Positions 2,958 to 64,000 of a stretch of 64,000 nucleotides of DNA are shown one piece after another. The DNA is from an uncultured Chloroflexia bacterium (GTDB taxonomy: Bacteria; Chloroflexota; Dehalococcoidia; DSTF01; JACRBR01): assembly GCA_963701135.1 (NCBI GenBank), contig OY969567.1:2576537-2640536 (forward strand). The letters are read 5' to 3'. Within the stretch, counting starts at the first letter, position 1. Each line of letters starts with the position of its first letter. Below the pieces are notes generated by a model. The model saw only the letters and a list, made by a program, of their open reading frames with translations, ran no database searches and was not told where the DNA came from. The position numbers and the translations under genes are program-made.

Positions 2958-3060
2958 CCACGGGTAGGGGCGGAGCCATGCCTCCGCCCTGGTCGAGTAG
3001 GGGCGGAGCCATGCCTCCCCCGTGGTCGAGTAGGGGCGGAGCTATGCCTCGTCGCTCGAC
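2958..3060. repeat. Three tandem copies of a 33-bp unit (GTCGAGTAGGGGCGGAGCCATGCCTCCGCCCTG), each with an internal 7-bp hairpin (GGCGGAG/CTCCGCC). A fourth copy lies at 6497-6530.
   Basis: Direct reading of the sequence. The units are contiguous, with no spacers. Confidence 0.8.
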
Positions 3061-21123: not shown

Positions 21124-22077
21124 ATGGCCACGATCAACACCGTCACCGGCCCCATCGACATCGCCGAGCTCGGCTTCACGCTCATGCACGAGCACATCTT
21201 CGTCCTGTCCGAGGGCGTCAACGCCAACTTCCCCCACCTCTGGGACCGCAACGGCCGCGCCGCGCAGGCCGTCGCCAGCCTCAAGGAGGCGAAGGCGCAC
21301 GGGGTCTCGACGCTCGTCAACCTCACGGTGCTCGGCCTCGGCCGCGACGTCGCGCTCGTCCGCGAGATCGCCCGCGAGGCCCGCATCAACGTGATCGTCG
21401 CCACCGGCCTCTACACCTACGACGAGTTGCCGCACTACTTCGCGTCGCGGAGCGAAGACCACATGGCCGACTGCTTCGTGCGCGACATCGAGCAGGGGAT
21501 CCAGGGCACGGACATCCGCGCCGCCATCCTCAAGTGCGCGACCGACGAGAAGGGCCTCACGCCCGGCGTCGAAAAGGTGCTCCGCGCCGTCGCCCGCGCG
21601 CATCGCCGCACCGGCGTCCCGATCTCGACGCACACGCACGCGGCCACCAAGCAGGGCCTCAACCAGCAGCGCATCTTCACGGAAGAAGGCGTCGACCTGC
21701 GCCGCGTCGTCATCGGCCACAGCGGCGACAGCGAGGACGCCGGCTACCTGGAGACGCTGATCAAGGCGGGCTCGTACGTCGGCATGGACCGCTTCGGCAT
21801 CGACTCGTTCCTTCCGACCGACAAACGCGTCGCCACCATCGCGAAGCTGTGCGAGCGCGGCCACGCCGGCAGCATGGTGCTGGCGCACGACGCCTCCTGC
21901 TACATCGACTGGTTCGAGGAGGCGCTGGTGCACGCGGCGATGCCGCGCTGGCACTACCTGCACATCCCGGACGACGTCCTGCCGGCGCTCCGCCAGGCCG
22001 GCGTCAGCGACGAGCAGGTCCGCCAGATGACCGTCGACAACCCGCGCCGCATCTTCGAGGCCCAGGGTGCCTACTAG
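21124..22077 (+). CDS. Phosphotriesterase-family (PTE/aryldialkylphosphatase-related) metal-dependent hydrolase
   Basis: GFTLMHEHI start of the amidohydrolase TIM barrel, ISTHTHA and HD metal ligands. 317 aa. Confidence 0.75.
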   Translation: MATINTVTGPIDIAELGFTLMHEHIFVLSEGVNANFPHLWDRNGRAAQAVASLKEAKAHGVSTLVNLTVLGLGRDVALVREIAREARINVIVATGLYTYDELPHYFASRSEDHMADCFVRDIEQGIQGTDIRAAILKCATDEKGLTPGVEKVLRAVARAHRRTGVPISTHTHAATKQGLNQQRIFTEEGVDLRRVVIGHSGDSEDAGYLETLIKAGSYVGMDRFGIDSFLPTDKRVATIAKLCERGHAGSMVLAHDASCYIDWFEEALVHAAMPRWHYLHIPDDVLPALRQAGVSDEQVRQMTVDNPRRIFEAQGAY

Positions 22078-22154
22078 TGTAGTGCTTCTAACGCTTCTTT
22101 AACGTGGGCGCGGTGGCGCACGCGTCCGAGATCCTCAGACGAGCCGCTGTACCA

Positions 22155-22245
22155 CGTCGGTCCGGCTTCGCCGGACGCACAGCCGGGGCGGCTATGCTCC
22201 ACGCTTCGCGTCTCGCAAACAAACGACTGTTCGGAATCACTACAC
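22155..22245. repeat. Partial copy of the MITE-like repeat family (palindromic core ACAGCCGGGG(G)CGGCT)
   Basis: GTCGGTCCGGCTTCGCCGGACGCACAGCCGGGGCGGCTATGCTCCACGCTTCGCGTCTCG matches the left terminal inverted repeat of the 36047-36282 element and the reverse complement of the 26775-27150 units. Confidence 0.7.
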
Positions 22246-22493
22246 TAGCCTCCTTCGTCCCCCGTTGCTCCTGCTCCGAAGCGGCGTACGGGCGCGGCCG
22301 TCTCGAAGCGAGGCGCGCCGCGTGTGGGGTAGCTGCCTCCGGCTGCCCATCCGGCGGTCGCAGAGCCGCCGCAGGAGACAGCCGGATCACGCCCACCCAC
22401 CTGCCGGCCGCCGGCGCCCGTCGCGTGCGCCTCCCCGCGGCCGCCTCGTGAGCAGCTGCCAATCGGCGACATCTGGGCAATCCGCAGATGGCC

Positions 22494-22629
22494 GCCTCCA
22501 ACCTCCAACCTCCAACCTCCAACCTCCAACCTCCAACCTCCAACCTCCAACCTCCAACCTCCAACCTCCAACCTCCAACCTCTAACCTCTAACCTCCAAC
22601 CTCCAACCTCCAACCTCCAACCTCCAACC
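22494..22629. repeat. Heptanucleotide microsatellite (CCTCCAA)n, about 19 units (the other strand reads GGAGGTT)
   Basis: Direct reading. Two units are CCTCTAA variants. Located upstream of rny. Confidence 0.9.
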
Positions 22630-22747
22630 CCGTTTCCTTGACCGCCGGATCGGGCGCTGCGTATGATGGCCTCGTAGCTCGATCTGTCACGAATCGTTAA
22701 CGAGTTACGTTCGAGGGAGACTAAACAACCGGAAAGAGAGGCTACCA

Positions 22748-24280
22748 ATGTTCGCCATCCTGGGCGCCGTGATCGGCGTCGTTGTAGGATTGGCGATCGG
22801 GGCTCTTCTCGGCTACGCCATCAGGCGCAGCAGAACCAGGGACCAGGAGCTACTGGCGGAACAGGCTGCCGCCCGCCTCCTGGCCGATGCACAGGCAAAG
22901 GAAAAGGAGATCCTCCTCGGTGCCAAAGAGGAGGCAATTCAGGTCCGAGCTCAGGCCGAACAAGAGGTCAAGACACGCCGGGACGAAGTCCTCCGGCTTG
23001 AGCAGCGTGTTGCTAACAGGGAAGAGAATCTCGATCGCAAGATAGAGTCGCTCGAACGCAAGGAAGCGGCCTTCACCGAGAAGGAACAGCAGCAGGAAGC
23101 GACCCGCGCAGAGCTCGAAGAACTCCGCAAGGCCAAACTCGCCGAGGTCGAACGCGTCTCCGGCATGACCAGCCAGGAGGCGAAAGACCTGCTGCTCCGC
23201 GAACTGGAGCAGGAGATCCGCGACGAGGCCAACCGCATCGTCCGTACGCTCGAGGCCGAGGCGAAGGAGGAGGCCGACCGCCGCTCGCGGTCGATCCTGG
23301 CCACCACCATGCAGCGGCTCATGGCCGATGTCGTCACCGAGACCACGGTGTCCGTCGTGCCGATCCCCAGCGACGACATGAAGGGCCGCATCATCGGCCG
23401 CGAGGGCCGCAACATCCGCGCGCTGGAGACGGCGACGGGCGTCGACCTGATCATCGATGACACGCCCGACGCCGTCACGCTGTCCGCCTTCGACCCCGTC
23501 CGGCGCGAGATCGCCCGCGTGGCGCTCACGAAGCTCGTGCTCGACGGCCGCATCCACCCGACGCGCATCGAGGAGGTCGTCGAGAAGGCGCGGCACGAGG
23601 TCGACGCCAGCATCAAGACGGCGGGCGAGCAGGCGGCCATCGAGGCCGGCTGTCCGGGCTTGCACCCGGAGATCCTCCGCACCATGGGGAGGCTCAAGTA
23701 CCGCACGTCGTACGGCCAGAACCAGCTCAAGCACGCCGTCGAGTCCGCCTTCATCGCCGCGATGATCGCCGACGAGATCGGCGCCGACGTCAACGTCTGC
23801 CGCCGCGGCGCGCTGCTCCACGACCTCGGCAAGGCCATCGACCACGAGATCGAGGGCACGCACGCGGCGCTCGGCGCCGAGCTGGCGAAGCGCTACAACG
23901 TCACCCCCGCCGTGGTTCACTGCATCGAAGCGCACCACGAGGAGATCGAGGTCGAGACGACCGAGGCCGTGATCGTGCAGATCGCCGACGCGATCAGCGG
24001 CAGCCGGCCCGGCGCCCGCCGCGAGACGCTGGAGCTGTACATCAAGCGCCTGGAAGCGCTCGAAAGCATCGCCAACAGCTTCAAGGGCGTCGAGAAGTCG
24101 TTCGCCATCCAGGCCGGGCGCGAGATCCGCATCATCGTCAAGCCGGACGAGATCGACGACCTGGACTCCATGCGGCTGGCCCGCGACGTCAGCAAGAAGA
24201 TCGAGGAGTCGCTCGAATACCCGGGCCAGATCAAGGTCACCGTCGTCCGCGAGACGCGCGCGAGCGAGTACGCCCGCTAG
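22748..24280 (+). CDS. rny: Ribonuclease Y
   Basis: N-terminal TM helix, coiled coil, KH domain (KGRIIGREGRNIRALE) and HD domain (HAVESAFIAAMIADEIG...LLHDLGKA). 510 aa. Confidence 0.9.
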   Translation: MFAILGAVIGVVVGLAIGALLGYAIRRSRTRDQELLAEQAAARLLADAQAKEKEILLGAKEEAIQVRAQAEQEVKTRRDEVLRLEQRVANREENLDRKIESLERKEAAFTEKEQQQEATRAELEELRKAKLAEVERVSGMTSQEAKDLLLRELEQEIRDEANRIVRTLEAEAKEEADRRSRSILATTMQRLMADVVTETTVSVVPIPSDDMKGRIIGREGRNIRALETATGVDLIIDDTPDAVTLSAFDPVRREIARVALTKLVLDGRIHPTRIEEVVEKARHEVDASIKTAGEQAAIEAGCPGLHPEILRTMGRLKYRTSYGQNQLKHAVESAFIAAMIADEIGADVNVCRRGALLHDLGKAIDHEIEGTHAALGAELAKRYNVTPAVVHCIEAHHEEIEVETTEAVIVQIADAISGSRPGARRETLELYIKRLEALESIANSFKGVEKSFAIQAGREIRIIVKPDEIDDLDSMRLARDVSKKIEESLEYPGQIKVTVVRETRASEYAR

Positions 24281-24462
24281 GTCGTACGTCGCAGGTGGTA
24301 GGTTGCAGAGGGCGCGCGCCGCGAGGTGCGCGCCCTCTCGCGCGTGACAGCAAACGGCAAACAGCAAAGCGGGTTCGGGTTTCACGCCGCCCGCCTCTCT
24401 CGTCGCGCTTCTCGCTTCCCTCGCCGGTCTCGCCTCCCGCCGTCGCCCCCGTATACTGACGC

Positions 24463-25251
24463 ATGCGCATTCTCGTGATCGGAGACATCGTCGGCAGGCC
24501 GGGGCGGCGCGCCGTGGCCGCGCTCGTGCCGGGCCTGCGCCGCGAATTGCGCCTCGACATCGTCGTCGCCAACGGCGAGAACATGGCGGCCGGCCGCGGC
24601 ATCACCGTCAAGACCGCGAAGGAGGTCTTCGCCGGCGAGGTCGACGTGATCACGTCCGGCAACCACATCTGGGCGCAGCAGGAGGTCATCCCGTATCTCG
24701 ACACCGAGGCGCCGGTGCTGCGGCCCGCCAACTACCCGGAGGGCGTGCCCGGCCGCGGCATGGTGCGCTTCGCCGGCCTCACCGTGATCAACCTCATGGG
24801 CCGCACGTTCATGTACGAGATCGACGACCCGTTCCGCGCCGCCGACCGCCTGCTCGAAGCCGTCGAGCCCGGCACGCCCGTGCTCGTCGACATGCACGGC
24901 GAGGCGACGAGCGAAAAAGTCGCGATGGGCTGGTACCTCGACGGCCGGGTGTCGGCCGTCGTCGGCACGCACACGCACGTGCCGACCGCCGACCAGCGCA
25001 TCTTCCCGAAGGGCACGGCGTTCGTCTGCGATGCCGGCATGTGCGGCCCGCGCGACTCGGTGATCGGCGTCGAGGTGGAGCCCGTGATCCGCAAGTTCCT
25101 GACGGGGATGCCCGCGCGCTTCACCGTCGCCGAGAAGTCGAAGATGGTGGTGTTCAACTCCGTGCTCGTCGATATCGACGACGCCACGGGCAAGGCGCGC
25201 GCGATCGAGCGCGTCGACAGGGAATGGGAGCAGCATGGCGAGCAAGGGTGA
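24463..25251 (+). CDS. YmdB-like metallophosphoesterase (2',3'-cyclic-nucleotide 2'-phosphodiesterase, TIGR00282)
   Basis: MRILVIGDIVGRPGR...ANGENMAAGRGIT...TSGNHIW...GTHTHV motifs. Downstream of rny as in the conserved rny-ymdB arrangement. Confidence 0.8.
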   Translation: MRILVIGDIVGRPGRRAVAALVPGLRRELRLDIVVANGENMAAGRGITVKTAKEVFAGEVDVITSGNHIWAQQEVIPYLDTEAPVLRPANYPEGVPGRGMVRFAGLTVINLMGRTFMYEIDDPFRAADRLLEAVEPGTPVLVDMHGEATSEKVAMGWYLDGRVSAVVGTHTHVPTADQRIFPKGTAFVCDAGMCGPRDSVIGVEVEPVIRKFLTGMPARFTVAEKSKMVVFNSVLVDIDDATGKARAIERVDREWEQHGEQG

Positions 25252-26089
25252 TTTTCACACGCACAGCACCGCGTCCGACGGGCGCCTGACACCTACGGAG
25301 CTCGTCGACCTGGCGGCGGGGCAGGGCGTGAAGTACCACGCGCTCACCGACCACGACTCGACCGAGGGTGTGGCCGAGGCGCGCAAGGCCGGTGAGAAGC
25401 ACCCGGGCTACGTGCTGATCCCGGGTGTCGAGATGGGGACCGACATCGAGGGCGCCGAGGTGCACATGCTCGGCCTCTACCTGAGCCCGGACGACGCGAA
25501 GCTGCAGGAGATGCTCGCGAAGCTGCGCGAGGGTCGCCTCGGCCGTGGCGAGGGCATCGTCAAGAAGCTGCGTGCGATGGGCATCATGATCGAGTGGGAG
25601 CGCGTGCAGCAGATCGCCGGAGACGCCGCGGTCGGACGGCCGCACGTCGCGCAGGCGCTCGTCGAAAAGGGCTACGTCTCGAAGGTGGCGGAGGCGTTCG
25701 ACAAGTGGATCGGGCGCAACGGCCCGGCCTACGTCGAGCGCGACAAGATGACGCCGGCCGAGTCCGTGCGATGCATCGTCGAGCGCGGCGGCCTGGCGTG
25801 CCTGGCGCACCCGGCCGACATGGCCGATCTCGATAACCTGCTCATCGAGCTGAAGCAGGCCGGCATGGCGGCGATGGAGGTCTTCTACAAGGACTACCCG
25901 CCGGAGACGGTCGAGCGGCTGCGCGTCGCGGCGGAGAAGCACGGGCTGCTGCCGCTCGGCGGGAGCGACTACCACGGCATCTTCGGCAACGACGAGCCGC
26001 TGCCCGGCAACATCCCGCTGCCGGACTCCTCGGTGGAGCGGCTGCTGGAGTTCGCGCGCACGCTGCCCAACCGGGAGCTCGTGCGGTAG
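25235..26089 (+). CDS. PHP-domain phosphoesterase
   Basis: DFHTHSTASDG...ALTDHD...GGSDYHG PHP-family His/Asp motifs. Overlaps the ymdB-like stop. Confidence 0.75.
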   Translation: MASKGDFHTHSTASDGRLTPTELVDLAAGQGVKYHALTDHDSTEGVAEARKAGEKHPGYVLIPGVEMGTDIEGAEVHMLGLYLSPDDAKLQEMLAKLREGRLGRGEGIVKKLRAMGIMIEWERVQQIAGDAAVGRPHVAQALVEKGYVSKVAEAFDKWIGRNGPAYVERDKMTPAESVRCIVERGGLACLAHPADMADLDNLLIELKQAGMAAMEVFYKDYPPETVERLRVAAEKHGLLPLGGSDYHGIFGNDEPLPGNIPLPDSSVERLLEFARTLPNRELVR

Positions 26090-26256
26090 GCCGGAGCTGG
26101 TAGTCCGTGACGCCCCGCCGCCCCCGCGTTGCCGAGCCCGGCCGCCTGACCGCCGGTTGACGCAATCGTCAATCTGCACTATCGATTGCGCCGGTGCCGC
26201 GATAAGCTAACGCGACTGGCGCCGCCGTGGCGCCTTTTGGTTGCCCGGACCGGCCG

Positions 26257-26751
26257 ATGCAGTGTGCTACCCATCCCAACGTTGAGACCGAGCTGACGTG
26301 CAGCCGCTGTGGCAAGGCGATCTGCCCGCGCTGCCTGGTGCACACGCCCGTCGGCGCCCGCTGCCGCGAGTGCGCCAACGTGCGCCGCATCCCCACCTAC
26401 AACACGCCCGGCACCGTGATGCTGCGGGCGGCGGGTGCGGCGTTCGGCGCCGCGATCGCCGTCGGCATCGCCTGGTGGCTCTTCAATCCGCTGACGTGTT
26501 TCTTCTACGGCGTCATCGCCGGGCTGGCGTTTGGCTACGCGGTCGGAGAGCTGGTGTCGTTGGGGACGAACCGCCGGGCGGGGCCGCCGTTGCAGGCCGT
26601 CGCCGTCGCCGGCGTGGTACTGGCGTACGTGCTGCGGGTGATACTGCTGTTCGCGATCAGCGGATGGGTGCTGGGGGACCTGCGGCTTGACCTGTGCGGG
26701 CTGATCGCCCTGACGCTGGCCGGCTTCATCGCCGCCGGCCGGCTGCGCTAG
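26257..26751 (+). CDS. B-box-type zinc-finger membrane protein (hypothetical)
   Basis: N-terminal CxxC...CxxC...CxxC (CSRCGKAICPRCLVHTPVGARCREC) followed by 3-4 predicted TM helices. Confidence 0.5.
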   Translation: MQCATHPNVETELTCSRCGKAICPRCLVHTPVGARCRECANVRRIPTYNTPGTVMLRAAGAAFGAAIAVGIAWWLFNPLTCFFYGVIAGLAFGYAVGELVSLGTNRRAGPPLQAVAVAGVVLAYVLRVILLFAISGWVLGDLRLDLCGLIALTLAGFIAAGRLR

Positions 26752-26774
26752 CGCGAGGTCTGACTGCGATGTGC

Positions 26775-27150
26775 TACGTAGCCACGTGGCGCGGGCTTTT
26801 CAGCCCGCTCGGCACCACGGCTCGCTGGTGTACTGTTTCGAAATGGCGTTGGTTAACGCGACGCGAAGCGTGGATCACAGCCGCCCCCGGCTGTACGTCC
26901 GGCGATCGACGCGTCGCCGAAGGAGACAGCCGGAGCGCCGCGGCGGTCCTACGTGGCGCGGGCTTTTCAGCCCGCGCGGCACCACGGCTCGCTGGTGTAC
27001 TGTTTCGAAATGGCGTTGGTTAACGCGACGCGAAGCGTGGATCACAGCCGCCCCCGGCTGTACGTCCGGCGATCGACGCGTCGCCGAAGGAGACAGCCGG
27101 AGCGCCGCGGCAGTCCTACGTGGCGCGGGCTTTTCAGCCCGCGCGGCGCT
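26775..27150. repeat. Tandem array (2.2 copies) of a ~170-bp unit belonging to the MITE-like repeat family
   Basis: Units begin CTACGT(A/G)GC(CAC)GTGGCGCGGGCTTTTCAGCCCGC and contain the palindromes GCGCGGGCTTTTCAGCCCGCGC and ACAGCCGCCCCCGGCTGT. The copies at 26775, 26949 and 27117 are nearly identical. Confidence 0.85.
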
Positions 27151-27222
27151 TCGCACTGCTGCGCCTCGACGGTTGGCCGGCGTCTCCTCCCCGCGCGGGG
27201 GGTGGCGTTGGGGTTGGCTGCG

Positions 27223-27744
27223 CTAGCGCATCACCACCGCGAGGATCACGAGCGTCACGATGACCATCGTCGCGAGGACGGCGATCCGCCGCAGCTCGTG
27301 CATCGCGTACTTCGTGTCGCGGACGGCGAGCGCCTGGACGTCGAGGTCGCGCCGCTTTCGCACGCCCTGTTGCTGGATGGCGCGGACCGTCGTGGGCAGC
27401 TTGCCCGACGGCGTACGCTGGAACGGCACAGGGCGGTCCGGCTCGGACACCGGCTCCGCCGCGGCGGGTGGAGCGAATGCGGCCGCCGGCTCCGTCGCAG
27501 CGGGCACGGGCTCGGCGGCGGCTTCGACGGCCGCGCGCACAACCTCGGCCGCATCCTGCTGGTCCTCTTCGACGTACTGCTCTTGATCTTCGGGGAGCGC
27601 CGCCGGCTGGGCGCCGGGACGCAGGTAGGCGCGGTCAGTGCGCTTCTTCTTCCCCTGGATCCGGCCATCGCGGACGAGCGGTCGATTCTGTCTTGGCAAT
27701 GTCTCTCCTGGCGGCCGCCGGCGGCCGGGCAAATTGCCCCGCAT
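27223..27744 (-). CDS. Hypothetical tail-anchored membrane protein (Pro/Ala/Glu-rich linker, C-terminal TM helix)
   Basis: The only frame with a non-degenerate composition and a clean C-terminal TM (IAVLATMVIVTLVILAVVM). The alternative frames are Arg/Ser/Pro-rich. The start is uncertain. Confidence 0.35.
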   Translation of the reverse strand: MRGNLPGRRRPPGETLPRQNRPLVRDGRIQGKKKRTDRAYLRPGAQPAALPEDQEQYVEEDQQDAAEVVRAAVEAAAEPVPAATEPAAAFAPPAAAEPVSEPDRPVPFQRTPSGKLPTTVRAIQQQGVRKRRDLDVQALAVRDTKYAMHELRRIAVLATMVIVTLVILAVVMR

Positions 27745-27821
27745 TATAGCCTCGGCCTATTGCCGTCACAACGCCACCCCCGCTGGCGGGTGTACCGGTG
27801 GCGACCCGCCATCGCCTGGGT

Positions 27822-34984: not shown

Positions 34985-35436
34985 CGACCCGCGACTTTGA
35001 CCTCCGCGTTCAGCAGGCCGTTTCGGCGGGCGGCGTCGTGTACCGCACGGGTGAGCGCGGGATCGAGGTCGTGCTGTGCGGCCGGACGCCGGAGGGGCTG
35101 TGGGCGCTGCCGAAGGGCACGCCGGAGCGCGGAGAGTCGCTGCACGAGACGGCGCTGCGCGAGGTGAGCGAGGAGACGGGGCTCGGCGTGGAGATCGTCG
35201 GCGACCTGGGCACCATCGAGTACGTGTTCGCGCGGCCGGTACAGGGCGTGCGCTTCGAGAAGACGGTGTATCACTACCTGATGCAGCCGACGGGAAGCGG
35301 TAGTGTCAGCGACCACGACGGCGAGTACGATCGCGTGCAATGGTTTCCGGCGGAAGAGGCGTTGCGCATCATGACGCACCGCAACGAGGCGCAGGTCGTA
35401 CGCCGGGCGCTCGACGCAATCGAGGAACGGGCATGA
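34981..35436 (+). CDS. NUDIX hydrolase
   Basis: Nudix box GTPERGESLHETALREVSEETG. GTG start overlapping the upstream stop. Confidence 0.8.
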   Translation: MTTRDFDLRVQQAVSAGGVVYRTGERGIEVVLCGRTPEGLWALPKGTPERGESLHETALREVSEETGLGVEIVGDLGTIEYVFARPVQGVRFEKTVYHYLMQPTGSGSVSDHDGEYDRVQWFPAEEALRIMTHRNEAQVVRRALDAIEERA

Positions 35437-35975
35437 CGACAACGGTCGACGGCGAGGTCGCGCGCAGCGAGCTGGTCGTGCTGCGGGAGAAGCGCCTGGG
35501 CGACGCGCACAACGACTACCGCTGGCGCAGCGACGCGGAGCTTGCGCGCTTCGACGCGGCGCGCCCGTTCGCCGCGACGTACAACGACTACCTGGCGCTC
35601 TACCGCGACGAGCTGACGTACCCCAGCCCTTACCGCCGCAGCCTGGCGATCGAGGACATGGGCGGCCGCCACATCGGCAACGCGATGTACTACAACATCG
35701 ACACGATCCGTCGCGAGGCCGAGATCGGCATCACGATCGGCGAGCGCGATTGCTGGGGCAAGGGCTACGGCACCGACGCGGTGAAGGCGCTGGTGCGCCA
35801 CGTCTTTCGCACCACGGGATTCCGCCGCATCTACCTGAAGACGCTCGACTGGAACACGCGCGCGCAGCGCGCTTTCGAGAAGGCGGGCTTCCGCGGCTGC
35901 GGCCGTTCGCGCCGGGGCGGCAACGCGTTCGTCGTCATGGAGTACATGGCGGCGTGGCTGGACGCGCGCGAGTAG
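35433..35975 (+). CDS. GNAT family N-acetyltransferase
   Basis: GKGYGTDAVKALVRHVF motif A. ATGA overlap with the NUDIX gene. Confidence 0.7.
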   Translation: MTTTVDGEVARSELVVLREKRLGDAHNDYRWRSDAELARFDAARPFAATYNDYLALYRDELTYPSPYRRSLAIEDMGGRHIGNAMYYNIDTIRREAEIGITIGERDCWGKGYGTDAVKALVRHVFRTTGFRRIYLKTLDWNTRAQRAFEKAGFRGCGRSRRGGNAFVVMEYMAAWLDARE

Positions 35976-36046
35976 CGGCGGCGAGTCCGGCGTCATCGCA
36001 CGCGACGCTGGATGTTGGGCCGAGGCGTTGTGCTGCGTCGGTCCGG

Positions 36047-36282
36047 CTTCGCCGGACGCGCAGCCGGGGGCGGCTACGCTCCACGCTTCGCGTCTCGATT
36101 TCTGACAGTCGTTGCAGATCAACACGGTGCCGCGCGGGCCGAAAAGCCCGCGCGACGGACTGCATGTGACTCCTTCAGCGCCCCGCTAGCCCCCGGCCTC
36201 TTCGTTCGACGATTCTGACCGGCGGGCGCTAAGCATGTAGGACAGCCGCCCCCGGCTGTCCATCCGGCGAAGCCGGATCGAT
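36047..36282. mobile_element. MITE-like non-autonomous element (~236 bp) with ~40-bp terminal inverted repeats
   Basis: Left end GTCGGTCCGGCTTCGCCGGACGCGCAGCCGGGGGCGGCT. Right end AGCCGCCCCCGGCTGTCCATCCGGCGAAGCCGGATCGAT, its near-perfect reverse complement. The internal GCGCGGGCCGAAAAGCCCGCGCG hairpin is shared with the 26775-27150 repeats. Confidence 0.65.
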
Positions 36283-36286
36283 GCCG

Positions 36287-37840
36287 CTAGCGCGCCGGGC
36301 TGCCGGCGTAGTGCGCGACCAGCGCTTCGACCAGCCCATCGATCGTGTAGCGGCCGGCGGTCACGCTGACCTCGAGGCCTGCTTCGCGCACGGCGGCGGC
36401 GGTGACGGGGCCGATCGCGGCGATGACGGCGGTGCGCAGCGGGGCGGGGTCGCCGCCGAGCATGGCGATGAGGTTGCGCACGGAGGATGAGCTGGCGAAG
36501 GTGACGGCATCGATCTCGCCCGCGCGCAGCCGCCGCAGCGCTTCGGCGCCGGGCCGCTCGGGCACCGCCGCCCGGTAGAGCGTCAGCTCGCGCACGCTGG
36601 CGCCCATCGCCAGCAGGCCGTCGACCAGCACCTCACGCGCGCCTTCGGCGCGGGGCAGCAGCACGCGCTGGCCGCGCATGACACGCGAGGCGAACGCGTC
36701 CAGCAGCCCCTCGGCGACGAAGCGCTCCGGCACGAGGTCCGCGCGCAGCCCCTCGCGCGCCAGAGCCTCGGCCGTGCCGGGGCCGATGGCGGCGATACGC
36801 GCTCGCGCGAACGCCCGCGCGTCGAGCCCGGCGCCGCGCACGTGGCCGAGGAACAGCTCGACGGCGTTGGCGCTCGTGAAGACGACCCACTGGTAGCCTG
36901 ACGATTTCAGCACCTCGATCGCGTACCCAAGCTCGCGCTCGTCGTGCGAGGGCACGATCTCGATGACCGGCAGCTCGACCGGCTCGGCGCCCTGCGCCGC
37001 GAGGGCGCGCGACAGGTCGCTCGCCTGCCGGCGCGTGCGGGTGACGAGCACGCGCTTGCCGAACAGCGGGCGCGTGTCGAACCAGCGCAGCTCGTCGCGC
37101 AGCCGCGCGACCTCGCCGACGACGGTGACGGCGGGCGGCTCGATGCCGGCCGCGCGCACGGCGCCGGCGATCGTCGCGAGCGTGCCGGTGGCGGTGCGCT
37201 GCCGCGGCAGCGTGCCCCATTCGATCACCGCCGCGGGCGTCGCTGCGTCGCGGCCGTGCGCGATCAGTTGCTCCGCGATCTCGGCGAGCCGCCCCGTGCC
37301 CATGAGGAAGACGAGCGTATCGGCGCCGTTCGCGAGCCGCGCCCAGTCGATGCTCGTCGCGTCCTTCGACGGGTCCTCGTGACCCGTGATCACGGCGAAC
37401 GACGATGCAAGCGAGCGATGGGTCAGCGGGATGCCCGCGTACGCGGGCGCGGCGATCGACGACGTGACGCCGGGCACCACCTCGAACGGCACGCCGGCGG
37501 CGATCAACGCCTCGGCCTCCTCGCCGCCGCGGCCGAAGACGAAGGGGTCGCCGCCCTTGAGGCGCACAACGCGCTTTCCGGCGAGCCCGAGTTCGACGAG
37601 CAGCGCGTTGATCTGGTCCTGCGTCATCGTGTGGCGGTCGGTGGTCTTGCCGACGTAGATCAGCTCGGCGCCGGGGCGCGCGTGCGAGAGCAGCGCCGGG
37701 TTGGCCAGGCGGTCGTAGACCACGACCTCCGCCTCGGCGAGGCGCGCCGCGCCGCCGATGGTCAGCAGATCGGGATCGCCCGGGCCGGCGCCGACGAGCG
37801 AGACGAACCCCTTGCCGCGCGATGCCCCGTCGCTGCTCAT
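36287..37840 (-). CDS. cobA-hemD: Uroporphyrinogen-III C-methyltransferase / uroporphyrinogen-III synthase fusion
   Basis: N-terminal SUMT ([15 protein letters not shown]...[12 protein letters not shown]). C-terminal HemD-like half. Confidence 0.85.
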
Positions 37841-38746
37841 TCGATGAACCTCGCCGCTCCCTGCGCCAGCACCGCCTCGGCCGCGCGCACGCCCAGATCG
37901 CCCGGCGTGGCGGATGGGCCGCGCACCTCGGCGCGGATGATGCGGTCGCCGGCGGCGATCATCACGCGCAGCATCAGCTCACCGGCGGCAACGGTAGCGT
38001 ACGCGCCGACGGGGAGCCGGCAGCCGCCGCCAAGCCGTTGCAGGTACGCCCGCTCTGCCTCGACCGCCGCGTGCGTCTGCGCGTCATCGATCGCGCTGAC
38101 GAAGGCCAGCGCCTCGTGGTCGTCGATGCGCGCTTCTATGCCGAGCGCGGCCTGGCCGACGGCCGGGAGCATCTCGTCGACCGAGAACACGTGCGCGGCC
38201 TTGCCTTCGAGCCCCAGGCGCGCCAGGCCGGCCATCGCGAGCACCGCGGCGTCGTACTCGCCGGACTCCACCTTCCTGATGCGGGTGTCGACGTTGCCGC
38301 GGATCTCGATCGTCTCGACGTCAGGCCGGAGCGACTTGATCTGCACGGCGCGGCGGCCGCTGCCGGTGCCGATGCGCGCGCCCGGCGGCAGGTCCGCACA
38401 GCGACGCCCCGCCACGCGACACGAGGGCGTCGCGCGGGTCGGCGCGTGGCGGCACGGCGGCGAGCGCGAGGCCGGCCGCGAGCGCGGCGGGCAGGTCCTT
38501 GAGGCTGTGGACGGCGATGTCGGCGTCGCGCGCGATGAGCGCGTCCTCGATCGCCTTCGTGAAGACGCCGAGGCCGCCGATCTCGGCGAGCGGCGCGGTG
38601 GAGCGGTCGCCCTCGGTGTGGATCTCGCGCACCTCGAGGCGCGCGCCGGGGTGGGCCGCGCGCAGGGCCTCCGACACCAGTTCGACCTGGCGGAGCGAGA
38701 GCTTGCTCCCGCGCGCGCCGATAACGAACGTCCGCTCCATGCCCAC
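37837..38746 (-). CDS. hemC: Hydroxymethylbilane synthase (porphobilinogen deaminase), with a frameshift near nt 38390
   Basis: N-terminus ERTFVIGARGSKLSLRQVELV...AVHSLKDLP in one frame. The C-terminal part (RIGTGSGRRAVQIKSLRPDVE...RGNVDTR) is in another. Confidence 0.75.
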
Positions 38747-38843
38747 ATTATCCGTGAAAGCATCGGTGGTCGATATGTGCGGGCCGGTATATGGGAGAGG
38801 AAGTTGGAGGTTGGAGAGCAGAGAGCAGAGACGGGCGGACGGC

Positions 38844-41699: not shown

Positions 41700-41902
41700 G
41701 CGGCCTCCAACCTCCAACCTCCAACCTCCAACCTCCAACCTCCAACCTCCAACCTCCAACCTCCAACGTCCAACCGCCGGCCTCCAACCGCCGGCCTCCA
41801 ACCTCCAACCTCCAACGTCCAACCTCCAACCGCCGGCCTCCAACCTCCAACTTCCAACCGCCGGCCTCCAGCGTCCAGCCTGCGGCCTCTAGCCTCCAAC
41901 CT
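41700..41902. repeat. Heptanucleotide microsatellite (CCTCCAA)n with CCGGCCTCCAA variants, ~25 units. It reads (GGAGGTT)n on the strand of the downstream MerR-family gene.
   Basis: Direct reading. Lies 130 nt upstream of the MerR-family start. Confidence 0.9.
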
Positions 41903-41925
41903 CGGGGCGCCGGTACGCTGCATGC

Positions 41926-43359: not shown

Positions 43360-45104
<1,745 letters not shown>

Positions 45105-45611: not shown

Positions 45612-45859
45612 CGGTCAGATGATACGGGGTGCGAGGTGTTGCCGCAAGCGGCGGGGGGGGACAACAGACAACAGACAACAGACAGCAGACAACAGCAAAC
45701 AGCAAACAGCAAACAGCAAACAGCAAAGGGCAAAGGGCAGGCGTCGGCGCTCCTCCCGCTTCCCGCCTCCGGCGTCTCGCTTCCACTTGCCCGCTTCGCC
45801 GCTTCGGGTATTGCTGTTGTTGGTTGACGCGCTACACGGATCCGTGTACGGTGCCTCGC

Positions 45860-55113: not shown

Positions 55114-56387
55114 GGTTCTACACTCGTCAGTGTGGATTGAGAGCAGGAGGCTGAACAGAAAGGCACCTGGTGTTCCTGTAGCCTTGGGCTGATCAAAGAC
55201 GCCAGCAACAGGAAGGAGGCCAGGTGCTGTCTCAGGCTATCACGGTGCAGTTACGACTCCCAGGACTCGCGGTGTGGGGCGTGGAAGAGCGCGATGACGC
55301 GATCGAGGTCGTGGCCCAGTACGCGGCTGCGGAGGCGCCGTGTCCGCGGTGCGACCAGCCGGCGTGGCAGGTGCATCAGGTGCACCGCCAGTACAAGCGG
55401 GACGCGCAGCTCTGGGGAAAGCAGGTCTGGATTCTGCTCTGGAAGCGGCGCTTTCGCTGTCGCACCTGCGGGTGCATCTTCACCGAACAGGACGCGGCGT
55501 GCGGGCGCCGACGGCGTACGACCTGCCGGCTGCGTGCGACCGTCGCACGCGACGCGGAGGAAACGCCGGTCCGGACCGTGGCACGCTGGCACGGGGTGAG
55601 TGAGGGGCTCGTACAGCGTAGCTGGCTGGAGGCGCATCGCTCCCCTGCGACACCGCCCAAACCGCACGTGTTGATCGGTCTCGACGGCTTCTGTGTGCGT
55701 CGGCCGGGCGCGATGTGGACGGGCCTCTGGGACCTCCAGACGCGGCATCCGATTGCCGTGGTGGCCGGAGAACGGAAGCTCGACGTGGAGAGGATGCTGG
55801 AGCGGCACGCCGCGCGAGACGCGGTGCGGGCCGTCAGCATCGACCTCTCGGAGGCGTACCGGCAGGCGGTGCAGCTGGTCCTGCCGGACGCGGCGATCGT
55901 CGCCGACAAGTTTCACGTCATCGCGCTTGCCGGCCGCGCCCTCCAGGAGGTGCACGGAGAGACGCGCCGGCGCGGCAACGTCGCCTGGCTGCTCCAGCGC
56001 GGCGTCGAGCGGCTGCACGCGGCGGACAAGCTGCGGCTGGCTGCGGCGCTGCGGCAGGACCGCGCGCTCACGACCGCCTGGACGCTCAAGGAAGAGCTGC
56101 GCGCCGTCTACCGCGCGCCGACGCAGGCCGCGGCGGAGCGGGCGCTGTCCGCGTGGATCCACGACGCAGAAGCAAGTGGCCTACGGCCATTCGTGCGCAC
56201 CGCGCGCACGCTGCGCTCGTGGCGCGCCGAGGTCCTGAACTACTGGCGGTATCCGATCACGAATGCCGTGGTCGAGGGCAAGCACAACCGCGTGAAAGTG
56301 CTGAAACGGAGGGCGTACGGCTACCGGAACAACCAGACCTTTCAGCTCAGGATCCTCAACCTAATCCACACTGATTGACGGAGAACC
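55114..56387 (+). mobile_element. ISL3-family insertion sequence (1274 bp) with imperfect ~28-bp terminal inverted repeats and an 8-bp target-site duplication GTTGGAGG
   Basis: IRL GGTTCTACACTCGTCAGTGTGGATTGAG. IRR (reverse complement) GGTTCTCCGTCAATCAGTGTGGATTAGG. Identical GTTGGAGG at 55106-55113 and 56388-56395. Confidence 0.8.
55224..56378 (+). CDS. ISL3-family transposase
   Basis: N-terminal zinc-finger CPRCDQP...CRTCGC and a DDE_Tnp_ISL3-like core (VSIDLSEAYRQAV...VADKFHVIALAG...KHNRVKVLKRRAYGYRNNQTFQLRIL). Confidence 0.8.
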   Translation: MLSQAITVQLRLPGLAVWGVEERDDAIEVVAQYAAAEAPCPRCDQPAWQVHQVHRQYKRDAQLWGKQVWILLWKRRFRCRTCGCIFTEQDAACGRRRRTTCRLRATVARDAEETPVRTVARWHGVSEGLVQRSWLEAHRSPATPPKPHVLIGLDGFCVRRPGAMWTGLWDLQTRHPIAVVAGERKLDVERMLERHAARDAVRAVSIDLSEAYRQAVQLVLPDAAIVADKFHVIALAGRALQEVHGETRRRGNVAWLLQRGVERLHAADKLRLAAALRQDRALTTAWTLKEELRAVYRAPTQAAAERALSAWIHDAEASGLRPFVRTARTLRSWRAEVLNYWRYPITNAVVEGKHNRVKVLKRRAYGYRNNQTFQLRILNLIHTD

Positions 56388-59116: not shown

Positions 59117-59234
59117 CACCCAAGGCTAGACAGAACCCCCTTGCCTTTTGGATCCCCACGCATGTCCCTCTACGGGACTATCTCTGTCATCAGGAGATCA
59201 CGGTTCGTAACGCATTGTTAGGAGCGCGCCCGGC

Positions 59235-62983
<3,749 letters not shown>

Positions 62984-62990
<7 letters not shown>

Positions 62991-64000
62991 AGGTAAACGA
63001 CTTCAACGCCGTCCGCATCTCGCTGGCGTCGCCGGAGCAGATCCGGTCGTGGTCGTACGGCGAGGTCACGAAGCCGGAGACGATCAACTACCGCACGCTG
63101 AAGCCGGAGAAGGACGGGCTCTTCTGCGAGAAGATCTTCGGCCCGACGAAGGACTTCGAGTGCTACTGCGGCAAGTACAAGCGCGTGCGCTACAAGGGCA
63201 TCGTCTGCGACAAGTGCGGCGTCGAGGTGGCGCGCTCGAAGGTGCGCCGCGAGCGCATGGGCCACATCGAGCTGGCGTCGCCGGTGAGCCACATCTGGTT
63301 CGTGAAGGGCACGCCGAGCCGGCTCGGGCTGCTGCTCGACATCTCGCCGCGCTCGCTGGAGCGCGTGCTGTACTTCGCGCAGTTCATCGTCACGACGGTG
63401 GACGAGCACGCGAAGAAGCGCGCGATCGAGCACCTGCAGGAGGAGATGGAGCGCGAGGCCGGGCGGCGCGAGAAGCAGTACGCCGACCAGCGTCGCCGAG
63501 CTGCGAGGAGCAGCTCGAGCGCGGCGGAGCAGGAGATCAAGGACGACCGCGAGCGGAAGCTGGCGCAGCTCGAGGAGGACCGCCAGGAGCAGACCGACGC
63601 GATCATGCAGCAGGCCGTCGAGTACCAGGAGGAGCTGAAGGAGCTCGTCGGCAAGACGGCGCGCAAGGGCTACCGCCTCGGCGACGCGCTGATCGTCGAG
63701 CGCGGCACCGTGATCGAGAAGAGCATCGTGAAGGGGCTGAAGAAGGTCGCGCAGGAGCGCGTCGCGGCGCTGGAGGCGGACGTTCGAAGCAAGAAGCGCG
63801 AGGACATCGCGCTGATGGCGGACGCCGCCGCTGGACCAGAAGCGCAAGGCGATCCTCGACGAGCTGAAGCCGCTGCAGGAGCGCGCCGGCGGCGAGCGCG
63901 AGGCGGTGTACGCCGAGTACCAGGAGCGCATCGAGGAGCTGGAGGAGCTGGTCGACCCGGCCGAGAACGACAAGATGATGCTGCTGACCGAGGCGCAGTA
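62984..64000 (+). CDS. rpoC: DNA-directed RNA polymerase beta' subunit, 5' partial in window, with a frameshift near nt 63490
   Basis: GTG start overlapping the rpoB stop. [53 protein letters not shown]...[23 protein letters not shown] zinc-binding N-terminus. Confidence 0.85.

What the first reader, a model, noticed from the sequence alone, without database searches (positions are those of the whole stretch)
36047..36282. MITE-like element with ~40-bp terminal inverted repeats and a shared palindromic core, present at three or more loci
The 236-bp element at the 3' end of cobA/hemD has near-perfect TIRs (GTCGGTCCGGCTTCGCCGGACGCGCAGCCGGGGGCGGCT versus its reverse complement at the other end). 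It contains the hairpin GCGCGGGCCGAAAAGCCCGCGCG. Related sequence with the same ACAGCCGCCCCCGGCTGT and GCGCGGGCTTTTCAGCCCGCGC palindromes occurs as a fragment at 22155-22245 and as a 2.2-copy 170-bp tandem array at 26775-27150, in the opposite orientation. No transposase is encoded. This looks like a non-autonomous mobile or REP-like family, possibly also a transcription terminator module at gene ends.
Basis: seen in the sequence. Interest (0 to 1): 0.55.

Follow-up and report, generated by a model that had tools for sequence, protein, structure and literature searches.

The report
Stop-codon-seeking miniature repeat family, Chloroflexota
The flagged 236 bases are not one small transposon but two decayed, back-to-back copies of a roughly 175-base mobile repeat that inserts at CTAG/TAG stop codons in an uncultured Chloroflexota lineage, which makes it an ordinary kind of bacterial repeat in an unusually clear example.

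Summary
The anatomy it proposed is wrong.

- **Size of the family.** A profile and a covariance model find six copies at three loci in the window. About 35 more lie on Chloroflexota MAG and metagenome contigs.
- **The intact element.** Its termini are CTAGTGTAGTG...CACTACACTAG, flanked by TA within CTAG.
- **Evidence of insertion.** Its 5' CTAG holds the stop codon of the phosphotriesterase gene. Three relatives have no element copy at that site. In one assembly, copies are 92-99% identical with unrelated flanks.
They are the internal three-hairpin cores of two oppositely oriented, end-decayed copies. These fill a 311-bp spacer that is only 12-32 bp long in two relatives.
- **The central hairpin.** It belongs to a separate REP-like hairpin family.
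- **The stems.** They show compensatory changes (16 cells against 1.8 expected).

There is no Rfam match, no promoter, no U-tract terminator, and no cognate transposase in 528 kb of held sequence.

Best reading: a MITE with IS630-like targeting (TA within CTAG) and a REP-like hairpin core. It is a new member of a known kind, of modest interest.

The parts
22074..22248 (+). Intact full-length element (175 bp). Termini are CTAGTGTAGTG (22074-22084) and CACTACACTAG (22238-22248). The 5' CTAG contains the TAG stop codon (22075-22077) of the phosphotriesterase gene.
   Evidence: nhmmer covers profile positions 2-186, E 5e-51. The covariance model scores the core 22115-22212 at 104 bits. The same site holds no element copy in L070/L071 and L076. 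Predicted fold: a closing stem plus hairpins, -77.5 kcal/mol, z -4.2 on the + strand and -88.4, z -6.6 on the - strand.
22312..22389 (-). Degenerate short copy comprising hairpin Hb with its expansion segment, Hc and Hd. It lies tail to tail with the intact copy.
   Evidence: Covariance model 28.6 bits, E 4.7e-5, model positions 45-100. BLAST similarity to the tandem unit. Read by eye.
26784..27147 (-). Tandem array of 2.2 x 167 bp. Each unit holds a REP-like hairpin, a 5'-truncated core (Hb with a 22-nt expansion, Hc, Hd) and the 3' arm of the element ending in ...GTACACCAG.
   Evidence: TRF gives period 167, 98% matches, score 714. nhmmer hits at 26825-26911 and 26992-27078 cover profile positions 92-186. 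Covariance-model hits at 26860-26980 and 27027-27147. Hairpins at 26789, 26956 and 27123.
26741..26754 (.). Left copy of the 14-bp direct repeat GGCTGCGCTAGCGC that brackets the whole 470-bp spacer. It includes the TAG stop of gene 26227-26751(+).
   Evidence: Exact match positions. The same site is empty in L070, where the two stops overlap as CTAA.
27216..27229 (.). Right copy of the 14-bp direct repeat. It includes the stop codon (CTA on the + strand) of gene 27223-27744(-).
35976..36128 (+). Left copy at the flagged locus. The core is well conserved and both arms are decayed, with no terminal repeats. It starts directly after the TAG stop of the GNAT gene (35973-35975).
   Evidence: nhmmer 35978-36108, profile positions 34-164, E 8e-24. 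Covariance model 35995-36094, 106 bits. Alignments.
36132..36153 (.). REP-like hairpin GCGCGGGC-CGAAAA-GCCCGCGC between the two copies. It belongs to a separate dispersed hairpin family.
   Evidence: The same stem with TGAAA(A)/TTTTCA-type loops occurs apart from the element in L026, L034, L041, L054, L065, L027, L016, L018 and L020. In L014 an element sits inside the loop of such a hairpin.
36226..36286 (-). Right copy at the flagged locus. It is a short type (Hb, Hc and a variant third segment CCTACATGCTTAGCG) and starts directly after the TAG stop of cobA/hemD (36287-36289 on the - strand).
   Evidence: nhmmer 36226-36284, profile positions 91-149, E 1e-10. Covariance model 65 bits. The same variant third segment is seen in L001.
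35976..36286 (.). The whole 311-bp spacer between the convergent GNAT and cobA/hemD genes. It is lineage-specific inserted DNA.
   Evidence: The orthologous spacer is 12 bp in L074 and 32 bp in L075, with both stop codons at the same positions.

Best explanation
The flagged stretch is the inner part of a 311-bp spacer. The spacer is built from two oppositely oriented, end-decayed copies of one repeat family, with an unrelated REP-like hairpin between them.

Anatomy of the family (shown):
- The intact form is 168-200 bp and has no ORF.
- It has 11-14-bp terminal inverted repeats, GTGTAGTGCTTC...GAAGCACTACAC.
- It is flanked by TA, nearly always within CTAG.
- It carries a conserved core with the motif CGCACGCG, a variable hairpin, and three GC-rich hairpins:
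  - Hb: GTCCGGC-loop-GCCGGAC.
  - Hc: GCACAGCCG-GGGG-CGGCTATGC.
  - Hd: ACGC-TTC-GCGT.

Mechanism:
- Inferred: a transposase supplied in trans binds the terminal repeats and cuts and pastes the element into TA. The TA-in-CTAG target is that of IS630, so an IS630/Tc1-mariner-type DDE enzyme is the leading candidate.
- Shown: in this 69% GC genome CTAG is three- to six-fold under-represented, and it survives mostly at TAG stop codons and between genes. Copies therefore collect exactly at gene 3' ends, and the element's own end re-forms the stop codon.
- Shown: after insertion the arms decay while the hairpin core is kept, with compensatory stem changes.
- Shown: copies are then duplicated in tandem (the 167-bp array) or come to lie tail to tail. 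That arrangement gives the apparent 40-60-nt 'TIRs' at 36 kb and a second such pair at 22 kb.
- Inferred and weakest step: the core persists because it is useful as a stable structure at mRNA 3' ends, as is documented for REP, ERIC and Correia elements.
For: Boundaries and termini:
- Twelve full-length copies were aligned. Similarity stops at TA|G...C|TA.
- Eight of 12 copies have TA on a given side. On those sides the neighbouring base is C before the left TA in 7 of 8 and G after the right TA in all 7.

Mobility:
- JADEYI01 copies are 92-99% identical, with unrelated flanks.
- The phosphotriesterase stop site carries the element in the window and no element copy in L070/L071 (GCCTATTAG|CCCCTCC) or L076.
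- The overlapping convergent stops (CTAA) are empty in L070. They are filled by a reverse-oriented element in L073/L077, by a different 84-bp TIR element in L072, and by the tandem array in the window.
- In L014 an element is inserted in the loop of a REP-like hairpin. Removing it restores a 6-nt loop.
- Two copies in L030 share one junction dinucleotide.
- A 98-bp element in L065 has the same termini but an unrelated interior. The termini are therefore the mobile signal.

Target bias:
- CTAG occurs 28 times, against 87 expected under Markov-1 and 181 from base composition.
- At least 75% of those sites are at stop codons or between genes.
- Several copies end exactly on a neighbour's stop codon.
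- IS630's preference for TA in 5'-CTAG-3' is known from Tenzen & Ohtsubo 1991, as cited in PMC2170065.

The flagged locus is an insertion: the spacer is 311 bp, against 12 and 32 bp in L074 and L075.

Hairpins are constrained:
- 93% of cells are paired.
- Eight pairs and 16 cells have changes on both sides, against 1.8 cells expected. None of 500 shuffles reaches this.
- Slid controls give 21-42% paired.
- Loops vary while stems hold, including in the orthologous copies L073/L077.

Copy census: the covariance model finds exactly six significant copies at three loci in the window.
Against: - No transposase gene with matching ends was found. There is no IS630-type PPYSPxLNPIE motif in the 528 kb held. 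The only IS in the window is an ISL3 with unrelated ends.
- TA and CTAG duplication cannot be told apart from these data.
- Most family members, about two thirds of the nhmmer hits, lack the terminal repeats. Across the wider family the core is better conserved than the ends. That is unusual for a MITE and could mean the hairpin core spreads by another route.
- The 470-bp spacer holding the tandem array is bracketed by a 14-bp direct repeat. The independent fill in L077 shows an 8-bp repeat. Both are longer than a TA duplication.
- Only one intact copy lies in the 64-kb window, and the genome-wide copy number is unknown.
- The assembly carries frameshifts in essential genes, so single-base details are unreliable.
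Confidence: 0.6

Rival explanations
1. REP/BIME-type system. The real repeating units are the short GC-rich hairpins (Hb, Hc, Hd and the GCGCGGGC hairpin). They spread as single-stranded hairpin DNA through a RAYT-like tyrosine transposase, or by recombination, and build mosaics, inverted dimers and tandem clusters. The copies with terminal repeats would then be a MITE that captured such a module.
For: - The minimal recurring module is about 60 nt of three hairpins, often without any terminal repeat.
- Tail-to-tail dimers occur at two window loci.
- Tandem clusters have periods of 75, 120, 122, 167 and 188 bp.
- The spacers are mosaics of several hairpin families.
- A conserved CGTCGG directly precedes Hb, reminiscent of the CGTC-tagged REPs in PMC3733652.
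- The same 22-nt expansion segment appears at two different places in the core.
Against: - No tyrosine transposase was seen next to any copy, although this was not searched systematically.
- CGTC REPs as defined have 8-9-bp stems with A/T pairs in the first two positions and a CCA tail. Hb does not have these.
- The clean TA/CTAG-flanked, terminal-repeat-bounded copies, the sites with no copy in relatives, and the 98-bp derivative with only the termini are better explained by a DDE-type MITE.
Confidence: 0.22
2. A structured non-coding RNA family. The ~100-nt core would be a functional RNA, either a cis-acting 3'-UTR element or a small RNA, kept by selection and multiplied by duplication. Its mobility would be secondary.
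For: - The core is 84-97% conserved between assemblies, while neighbouring segments drop to 45-70%.
- There are compensatory changes in three stems.
- Two polymorphic stem positions give G-U pairs on the element's minus strand but A-C mismatches on the plus strand: 30/39 and 9/39 sequences.
- Predicted folds are more stable than shuffled sequence, with z -4.2 to -6.9.
- Convergent-gene settings outnumber divergent ones by 15 to 6.
Against: - No Rfam family matches at the gathering threshold.
- The one weak hit, scr5239 at 27.5 bits against a gathering score of 64, is not reproduced by any other copy.
- There is no promoter-like site and no U-tract terminator.
- Orientation relative to the adjacent gene is not fixed.
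- The strand-asymmetry signal rests on two sites. Singleton changes split 4 to 4.
- Watson-Crick covariation fits DNA hairpins equally well.
Confidence: 0.15
3. Chance similarity of GC-rich palindromes in a 69% GC genome.
For: Individual stems are short and GC-rich. The covariance model gives many 10-17-bit background hits in coding DNA.
Against: - The exact 15-mer and 22-mer motifs occur far above shuffle expectation.
- The six copies score 29-106 bits.
- About 35 homologous copies occur in independent assemblies, with conserved order of motifs over 100-186 nt.
Confidence: 0.01

Closest known systems
IS630/Tc1-mariner-derived MITEs; parent behaviour shown for IS630 and ISY100
   Same: - Small size, no ORF, and short terminal inverted repeats.
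- Insertion at TA, with the TA lying inside CTAG. IS630 prefers TA in 5'-CTAG-3' (Tenzen & Ohtsubo 1991, cited in PMC2170065).
- Near-identical copies with unrelated flanks within one assembly.
   Different: - No autonomous IS with the same ends has been found.
- The interior is not a collapsed IS. It is a conserved hairpin core that outlives the ends.
- Many copies have no terminal repeats.
- Tandem arrays are common.
ERIC (Enterobacteriaceae) and Correia (Neisseria) elements
   Same: - Size of 100-200 bp and intergenic position.
- Fold into long stem structures.
- Sit at gene 3' ends or inside operons.
- Are co-transcribed, and are documented to change mRNA stability through RNase E or RNase III (review PMC10969869).
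- TA duplication for these elements is from my own knowledge and was not checked here.
   Different: - Unrelated sequence and a different phylum.
- Here the strongest conservation is in three short internal hairpins, not in the terminal repeats.
- Precise stop-codon targeting that regenerates TAG is more pronounced.
REP / BIME / REPIN, including GTAG- and CGTC-tagged REPs (PMC3733652)
   Same: - Short GC-rich hairpins, mostly downstream of genes and between convergent genes.
- Inverted (tail-to-tail) dimers and clusters.
- Several hairpin families coexist in one genome.
- A CGTC-like tag lies before Hb.
   Different: - Three different hairpins occur in a fixed order within a ~100-nt conserved core.
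- A subfamily has true terminal repeats and TA flanks.
- The defining REP features (stem length, A/T first pairs, CCA tail, RAYT linkage) are not met or not shown.
Pneumococcal BOX / RUP / SPRITE clusters
   Same: - Modular build with internally repeated modules.
- Elements are inserted into one another and bunched in the same spacers (PMC10969869). Compare the nested MITE in L047 and the mosaic spacer at 26752-27222.
   Different: No sequence relationship, different modules, and a high-GC host.

Membership tests
MITE (non-autonomous DNA transposon) | Small size (under about 500 bp) and no coding capacity | tested here: met
   Full-length copies are 168-200 bp. ORFs across the loci are spurious overlaps in high-GC DNA.
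MITE (non-autonomous DNA transposon) | Terminal inverted repeats at the true ends of the unit | tested here: met
Met for the family and for 22074-22248, with 11 nt perfect and about 14 nt in the consensus. Its arms are internal cores, and the outer ends of the 311-bp spacer share only TAGCGGC.
MITE (non-autonomous DNA transposon) | Target-site duplication, with matching sites that lack the element | tested here: met
   TA (within CTAG) flanks most full-length copies. No element copy at the orthologous sites in L070/L071 and L076, and an empty overlapping-stop site in L070. TA and CTAG duplication are not distinguishable. The 14-bp repeat around the tandem-array spacer does not fit.
MITE (non-autonomous DNA transposon) | Multiple dispersed copies with unrelated flanks and recent (near-identical) copies | tested here: met
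   Five JADEYI01 copies are 92-99% identical with different flanks. In the window itself there is one intact copy plus five decayed ones.
MITE of the IS630/Tc1-mariner superfamily | A cognate autonomous IS with the same terminal repeats, encoding a DDE (DDE_3) transposase | tested here: inconclusive
   None in the 528 kb held (motif scan; terminal-repeat pair scans). None in viral contigs, plasmids or phages. The rest of the 3.6-Mb genome could not be searched.
REP / BIME / REPIN | 20-40-bp GC-rich imperfect palindromes, dispersed, often as inverted dimers | tested here: met
   Hb, Hc, Hd and the GCGCGGGC hairpin. Tail-to-tail dimers lie at 22 kb and 36 kb.
REP / BIME / REPIN | A conserved GTAG or CGTC tag with the stem, loop and tail geometry of the described families | tested here: not met
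   CGTCGG precedes Hb in 90% or more of copies. However, the stem is 7 bp, its first pair is G-C, and there is no CCA tail. The described geometry is 8-9 bp with A/T first pairs (PMC3733652).
REP / BIME / REPIN | Linkage to a RAYT (Y1 tyrosine transposase) gene | not tested
   No systematic search of neighbouring genes was made. The genome outside the window was not available.
Rfam RNA families (including scr5239, HEARO, IS605-orfB motifs) | A covariance-model score at or above the family's gathering threshold | tested here: not met
   There are 0 matches in the window at gathering thresholds. scr5239 scores 27.5 bits against 64 for one copy only, and is absent for 12 other loci.
Intrinsic (Rho-independent) terminator | A GC-rich hairpin followed by a U-tract | tested here: not met
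   No terminator-like site on either strand at 35700-36500. None at the element copies within 21900-27400.

The most novel reading that the evidence does not exclude
The ~60-100-nt three-hairpin core is not just transposon filling. It would be a functional module, either a strand-specific RNA structure read from the element's minus strand or a protein-binding platform. A TA/CTAG-targeting MITE would deliver it precisely to stop codons across a whole Chloroflexota lineage, and it would then be retained by selection after the transposon ends decay. In effect this would be a mobile 3'-UTR regulatory cassette.
Probability: 0.2. Interest if true: 0.6.

Novelty: new member of a known kind. Interest (0 to 1): 0.3.

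Why it matters
- **Annotation.** It corrects a tempting misreading, in which two inverted internal modules were taken for transposon ends. It also gives usable boundaries, a consensus and a covariance model for a repeat family that is absent from Rfam and from the phage and plasmid collections searched.
- **Target bias.** The family shows cleanly how target specificity (TA in CTAG) combined with base composition (CTAG depleted, surviving mainly in TAG stops) can by itself concentrate mobile DNA at gene 3' ends and re-create the stop codon. Gene-end position alone is therefore weak evidence for a terminator function.
- **Possible function.** If the conserved hairpin core proves functional, it would be an example of a regulatory structure spread by a MITE in a poorly studied, uncultured soil and sediment lineage.
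- **Assembly and strain typing.** Such repeats are likely break and rearrangement points. One breakpoint of a 5-kb inversion lies in the element-bearing spacer at 22 kb.

Tried and rejected
- **Rfam.** There was nothing at gathering thresholds. The scr5239 lead was dropped because no other copy reproduces it.
- **Own sRNA gene with terminator.** There is no promoter-like site and no U-tract.
- **IS200/IS605 end or omega-RNA idea.** No TnpB or IscB lies nearby and no Rfam HEARO or IS605-orfB hit was found. The idea was dropped.
- **Search for the autonomous partner.**
  - Terminal-repeat pairs at IS-like spacing: none.
  - IS630 DDE motif in six-frame translations of all held DNA: none.
  - The ISL3 element in the window has unrelated ends.
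  - Viral contigs, plasmids and phages: no match.
- **Window genome in the species-representative genome collection.** It is absent. The five hits were other Chloroflexota MAGs.
- **Look-up of the 3.6-Mb contig.** The 100%-identical CobA/HemD protein did not retrieve it.
- **Deciding the transcribed strand from G-U versus A-C asymmetry.** The result is suggestive for the minus strand but rests on two sites.
- **Long-range pairing of CGCG in CGCACGCG with CGCG in TTCGCGTC.** RNAalifold proposed it, but both sides are invariant, so it is uninformative.
- **Orientation relative to flanking genes.** The gene calls were crude (GC3-based) and no fixed orientation emerged.
Full report

Largely yes.
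- The spacer between the convergent GNAT gene (35340-35975, +) and cobA/hemD (36287-37840, -) holds an inverted repeat. Its arms are 36032-36092 and 36227-36287, 61 nt, 80% complementary, 134 nt apart.
- That is 49/61 matches. Three hundred Markov-1 simulations of the same length and composition give 35.5 +/- 1.8, with a maximum of 41.
- The hairpin GCGCGGGC-CGAAAA-GCCCGCGC is at 36132-36153.
- The 15-mer CAGCCGGGGGCGGCT occurs four times exactly. With up to 2 mismatches it occurs seven times, against 0.83 expected.
- The tandem array is at 26784-27147, with period 167 (not 170), 2.2 copies and 98% matches.
- Related sequence lies at 22117-22249.

Three details are off.
- The 39-nt 'near-perfect' arms match at 34/39.
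- The left arm starts at 36037, not 36047.
- The 22-kb copy carries no GCGCGGGC hairpin.

**2. What the family looks like outside the window**

One pattern scan of species-representative genomes gave five hits, all in Chloroflexota or Dehalococcoidia MAGs. The window's own genome is not among them. One metagenome scan gave 64 loci. About 35 are true relatives and the rest are chance matches in coding DNA.

The consensus element is 168-200 bp:

TA|GTGTAGTGCTTCTAACGCTTCTTTA... CTCGCACGCG-[variable hairpin]-GTACCGCGTCG-GTCCGGC-TTC-GCCGGAC-GCA-CAGCCG-RGGG-CGGCTATGC-TCC-ACGC-TTC-GCGT-CGCGTTAACTAACG..TTCGAAAGCACTACAC|TA

A profile built from ten full-length copies finds 67 hits in the held DNA.
- About a dozen run from end to end.
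- The others keep only the ~100-nt core (profile positions ~35-152) or a ~60-nt module of three hairpins.

A covariance model of the core finds exactly six significant copies in the 64-kb window, at three loci, and nothing else below E = 0.01:
- 22115-22212 (+)
- 22312-22389 (-)
- 26860-26980 (-)
- 27027-27147 (-)
- 35995-36094 (+)
- about 36226-36286 (-)

**3.

The stretch 22074-22248 has perfect 11-nt termini, CTAGTGTAGTG and CACTACACTAG. It aligns end to end with the family (E 5e-51).

The 36-kb locus has no such termini.
- Its left copy (35976-36128, +) has a well-kept core with scrambled arms.
- Its right copy (36226-36286, -) is the short three-hairpin type.
- The same tail-to-tail arrangement recurs at 22 kb, as the intact copy plus the degenerate 22312-22389.

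The central hairpin is a separate repeat.
- The same stem, with TGAAA(A)/TTTTCA-type loops, occurs away from the element in many related loci.
- In L014 an element sits inside the loop of one such hairpin.

**4. Evidence that it is, or was, mobile**

(a) Five copies from one assembly (JADEYI01) are 92-99% identical and have unrelated flanks.

(b) The phosphotriesterase stop site differs between genomes.
- The window reads GCCTAC-TAG-[element]-TAG-CCTCC.
- The 87%-identical orthologue locus reads GCCTAT-TAG-CCCCTCC, with nothing inserted (L070/L071).
- The 91%-identical orthologue (L076) ends in TGA and also has no element copy.

(c) Two small convergent genes overlap their stops as CTAA in L070, which is the empty state. 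The same site is filled in three other ways:
- a reverse-oriented element spanning stop to stop in L073 and L077;
- a different 84-bp TIR element in L072;
- 470 bp that include the tandem array in the window.

(d) The cobA/hemD-GNAT spacer is 12 bp in L074 and 32 bp in L075, against 311 bp in the window. Both stop codons sit at conserved positions.

(e) A 98-bp element in L065 shares only the termini (CTAGCGTAGTGTCTC...GAGACACTACACTAG) and has an unrelated interior. The termini therefore look like the signal that is mobilised.

(f) Two copies in L030 abut and share one junction dinucleotide.

**5. Target and the gene-end bias**

Most full-length copies are flanked by TA, with C before the left TA and G after the right one, which gives CTAG. 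IS630 is known to insert at TA within 5'-CTAG-3' and to duplicate the TA. ISY100 and Tc1/mariner elements also duplicate TA (PMC2170065 and the references in it).

In the window, CTAG occurs 28 times. Markov-1 expectation is 87 and base composition gives 181. At least three quarters of the sites are at stop codons or between genes, although about 79% of the DNA is coding.

This alone explains two things. It explains why copies sit on stop codons (several end within 3 nt of a neighbour's stop). It also explains why convergent-gene settings outnumber divergent ones by 15 to 6 (crude gene calls). Because the element begins with G after the TA, a TAG stop is re-formed on either side.

Orientation relative to the neighbouring gene is not fixed. 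That argues for a DNA-level insertion preference rather than a strand-specific 3'-UTR function.

**6. The hairpin core**

I counted a structure of Hb, an extended Hc and Hd on 39 distinct copies.
- 93% of cells are paired.
- Eight pairs have changes on both sides, and 16 cells, against 1.8 cells expected. None of 500 shuffles reaches this.
- Slid controls drop to 21-42% paired.

Examples of compensatory change:
- TCCGGC/GCCGGA becomes TCCGCC/GGCGGA in L046, L005 and L060.
- TCCGGC/GCCGGA becomes TCGGGC/GCCCGA in L064.
- A-U becomes G-C at the base of Hc in five copies.
- ACGC/GCGT becomes ACAC/GTGT in L005.

Loops vary freely. A 22-nt expansion segment sits in the Hb loop in the window array and in L031, L054 and L056. 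In L021 it sits between Hb and Hc.

Between assemblies, the termini are 87-88% conserved and the Hb-Hd region 84-97%. Other segments are 45-70%. In the decayed copies only the core survives.

Two polymorphic stem positions would be G-U pairs on the element's minus strand but A-C mismatches on its plus strand (30/39 and 9/39 sequences). This hints at an RNA role on that strand. However, it rests on two sites, and singleton changes split 4 to 4.

Other tests of an RNA role:
- Predicted folds are more stable than shuffled sequence, with z -4.2 to -6.9.
- There is no Rfam match.
- The weak scr5239 hit, at 27.5 bits against a gathering score of 64, is not reproduced by other copies.
- No promoter-like site or U-tract terminator is present.

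**7. Most likely mechanism**

Shown:
- The family has terminal repeats, TA/CTAG flanks, and sites that lack the element in relatives.
- It has near-identical dispersed copies.
- Its arms decay while a covarying hairpin core persists.
- It forms tandem and tail-to-tail secondary arrangements.

Inferred:
- Mobilisation in trans by a TA-specific DDE transposase of the IS630/Tc1-mariner type.
- Retention of the core because stable hairpins at mRNA 3' ends are useful, as documented for REP, ERIC and Correia elements (PMC10969869; PMC3733652).

Confidence in this overall reading is about 0.6.

Main rivals:
- A REP/BIME-type system in which the hairpins themselves are the propagating units (about 0.2).
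- A genuine structured RNA family (about 0.15).

**8. What does not fit**

- No partner transposase was found. There is no IS630-type motif in the 528 kb held, and the only IS in the window is an ISL3 with unrelated ends.
- Two thirds of the copies lack terminal repeats.
- The 470-bp spacer with the tandem array is bracketed by a 14-bp direct repeat, GGCTGCGCTAGCGC, at 26741-26754 and 27216-27229.
- The independent fill in L077 shows an 8-bp partial repeat. Both repeats are longer than a TA duplication and remain unexplained.
- The assembly has frameshifts in groEL and probably in hemC and rpoB. Single-base differences should not be over-read.

**9. Comparison and novelty**

In behaviour the family is closest to TA-targeting bacterial MITEs: IS630-type MITEs, and ERIC and Correia in their gene-end position and RNA effects. 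In its internal make-up, dimers and clusters it is closest to REP/BIME and to pneumococcal BOX-type mosaics.

- It meets the structural tests for a MITE.
- The test that would assign it to the IS630 superfamily, a cognate transposase, is open.
- It does not meet the defining geometry of the CGTC-tagged REP families.
- No sequence relative exists in Rfam or in the phage and plasmid collections.

I rate it a new member of a known kind. It is useful for annotation and a neat illustration of composition-driven stop-codon targeting, but not surprising to a specialist. Interest 0.3.

The most novel reading still open is that the core is a MITE-delivered functional 3'-end module. Its probability is about 0.2.

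Noticed in passing
window 55114-56387: A complete ISL3-family insertion sequence. The transposase is at 55182-56378 (+), with Pfam DDE_Tnp_ISL3 at 8e-55 plus the zinc-ribbon and HTH domains. Its 50-nt imperfect inverted repeats lie at 55114-55163 and 56338-56387 and are unrelated to the repeat family's termini.
   Followed up: yes
window 22495-22629, 41704-41903 and about ten other sites (e.g. 6454, 11586, 14266, 16161, 45660-45734, 47596, 56388, 58660): Heptanucleotide tandem arrays are scattered through intergenic DNA: (CCTCCAA)19, (CCTCCAA)28, ACAGACA, CCTATCA, TTGCTGT, GACAACA, AACAGCA, GTTGGAG and AGAACCG. Similar 7-8-nt arrays flank copies of the repeat family in L060, L020/L058, L041 and L032. 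They recall the heptamer STRR repeats of cyanobacteria; that comparison is from my own knowledge.
   Followed up: no
window about 22078-27797: The gene block rny-ymdB-PHP-174aa-173aa is inverted relative to four relatives (L070, L072, L073, L077). One breakpoint lies in the element-bearing spacer after the phosphotriesterase gene. The other is at about 27780-27797, just beyond the retained promoter-like GGCTATAATGCGG of the 173-aa gene, and no element copy lies there.
   Followed up: partly
window 26741-26754 and 27216-27229: An exact 14-bp direct repeat, GGCTGCGCTAGCGC, brackets the 470-bp mosaic spacer that holds the tandem array. Each copy contains the stop codon of one of the two convergent genes. 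It is longer than any TA/CTAG duplication and is unexplained.
   Followed up: partly
window 43360-45104 (groEL), 37837-38763 (hemC), 59211-64000 (rpoB/rpoC): Essential genes are broken by frameshifts. groEL reads correctly in one frame for about 120 residues, then continues in another, with a further garbled stretch near the C-terminus. This suggests indel errors in the assembly (for example an unpolished long-read MAG) rather than real pseudogenes.
   Followed up: partly
L047 340-490; L054 4270-4297; L065 4855-5000: A second MITE-like family, with terminal repeats CAGGGTGTTGAAAAA...TTCTTCAACACCCTG. In L047 it is nested inside the 5' arm of a copy of the main family, with a CTAAC duplication. 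In L054 it abuts a copy at its CTAG.
   Followed up: no
L065 4752-4853; L072 11687-11769: Two other miniature elements sit at TAG/CTAG sites. The first is a 98-bp element sharing only the termini of the main family. The second is an 84-bp element with its own terminal repeats (CGTCCGAGNAAGA), inserted at the same convergent-stop site that the main family occupies in other genomes.
   Followed up: partly
window 27184-27201; L032, L064, L076, L041: A further dispersed hairpin family of the type CCCCTTCCCGGCGCGGGAAGGGG (the window variant is CTCCCCGCGCGGGGGG), together with CTCTCCACG.CGTGGAGAG. It co-occurs in the same spacers as the main family.
   Followed up: no
L049 2031-2110: A c-di-GMP-I-GGC riboswitch aptamer (Rfam RF03167, 62.9 bits, above the gathering score) in a related metagenome contig. 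It is unrelated to the repeat.
   Followed up: no
window 2964-3050: A 33-bp tandem repeat, 2.6 copies, 94% matches (GTAGGGGCGGAGCCATGCCTCCCCCCTGGTCGA). It starts with GTAG and contains a short palindrome, so it may be another REP-like unit.
   Followed up: no
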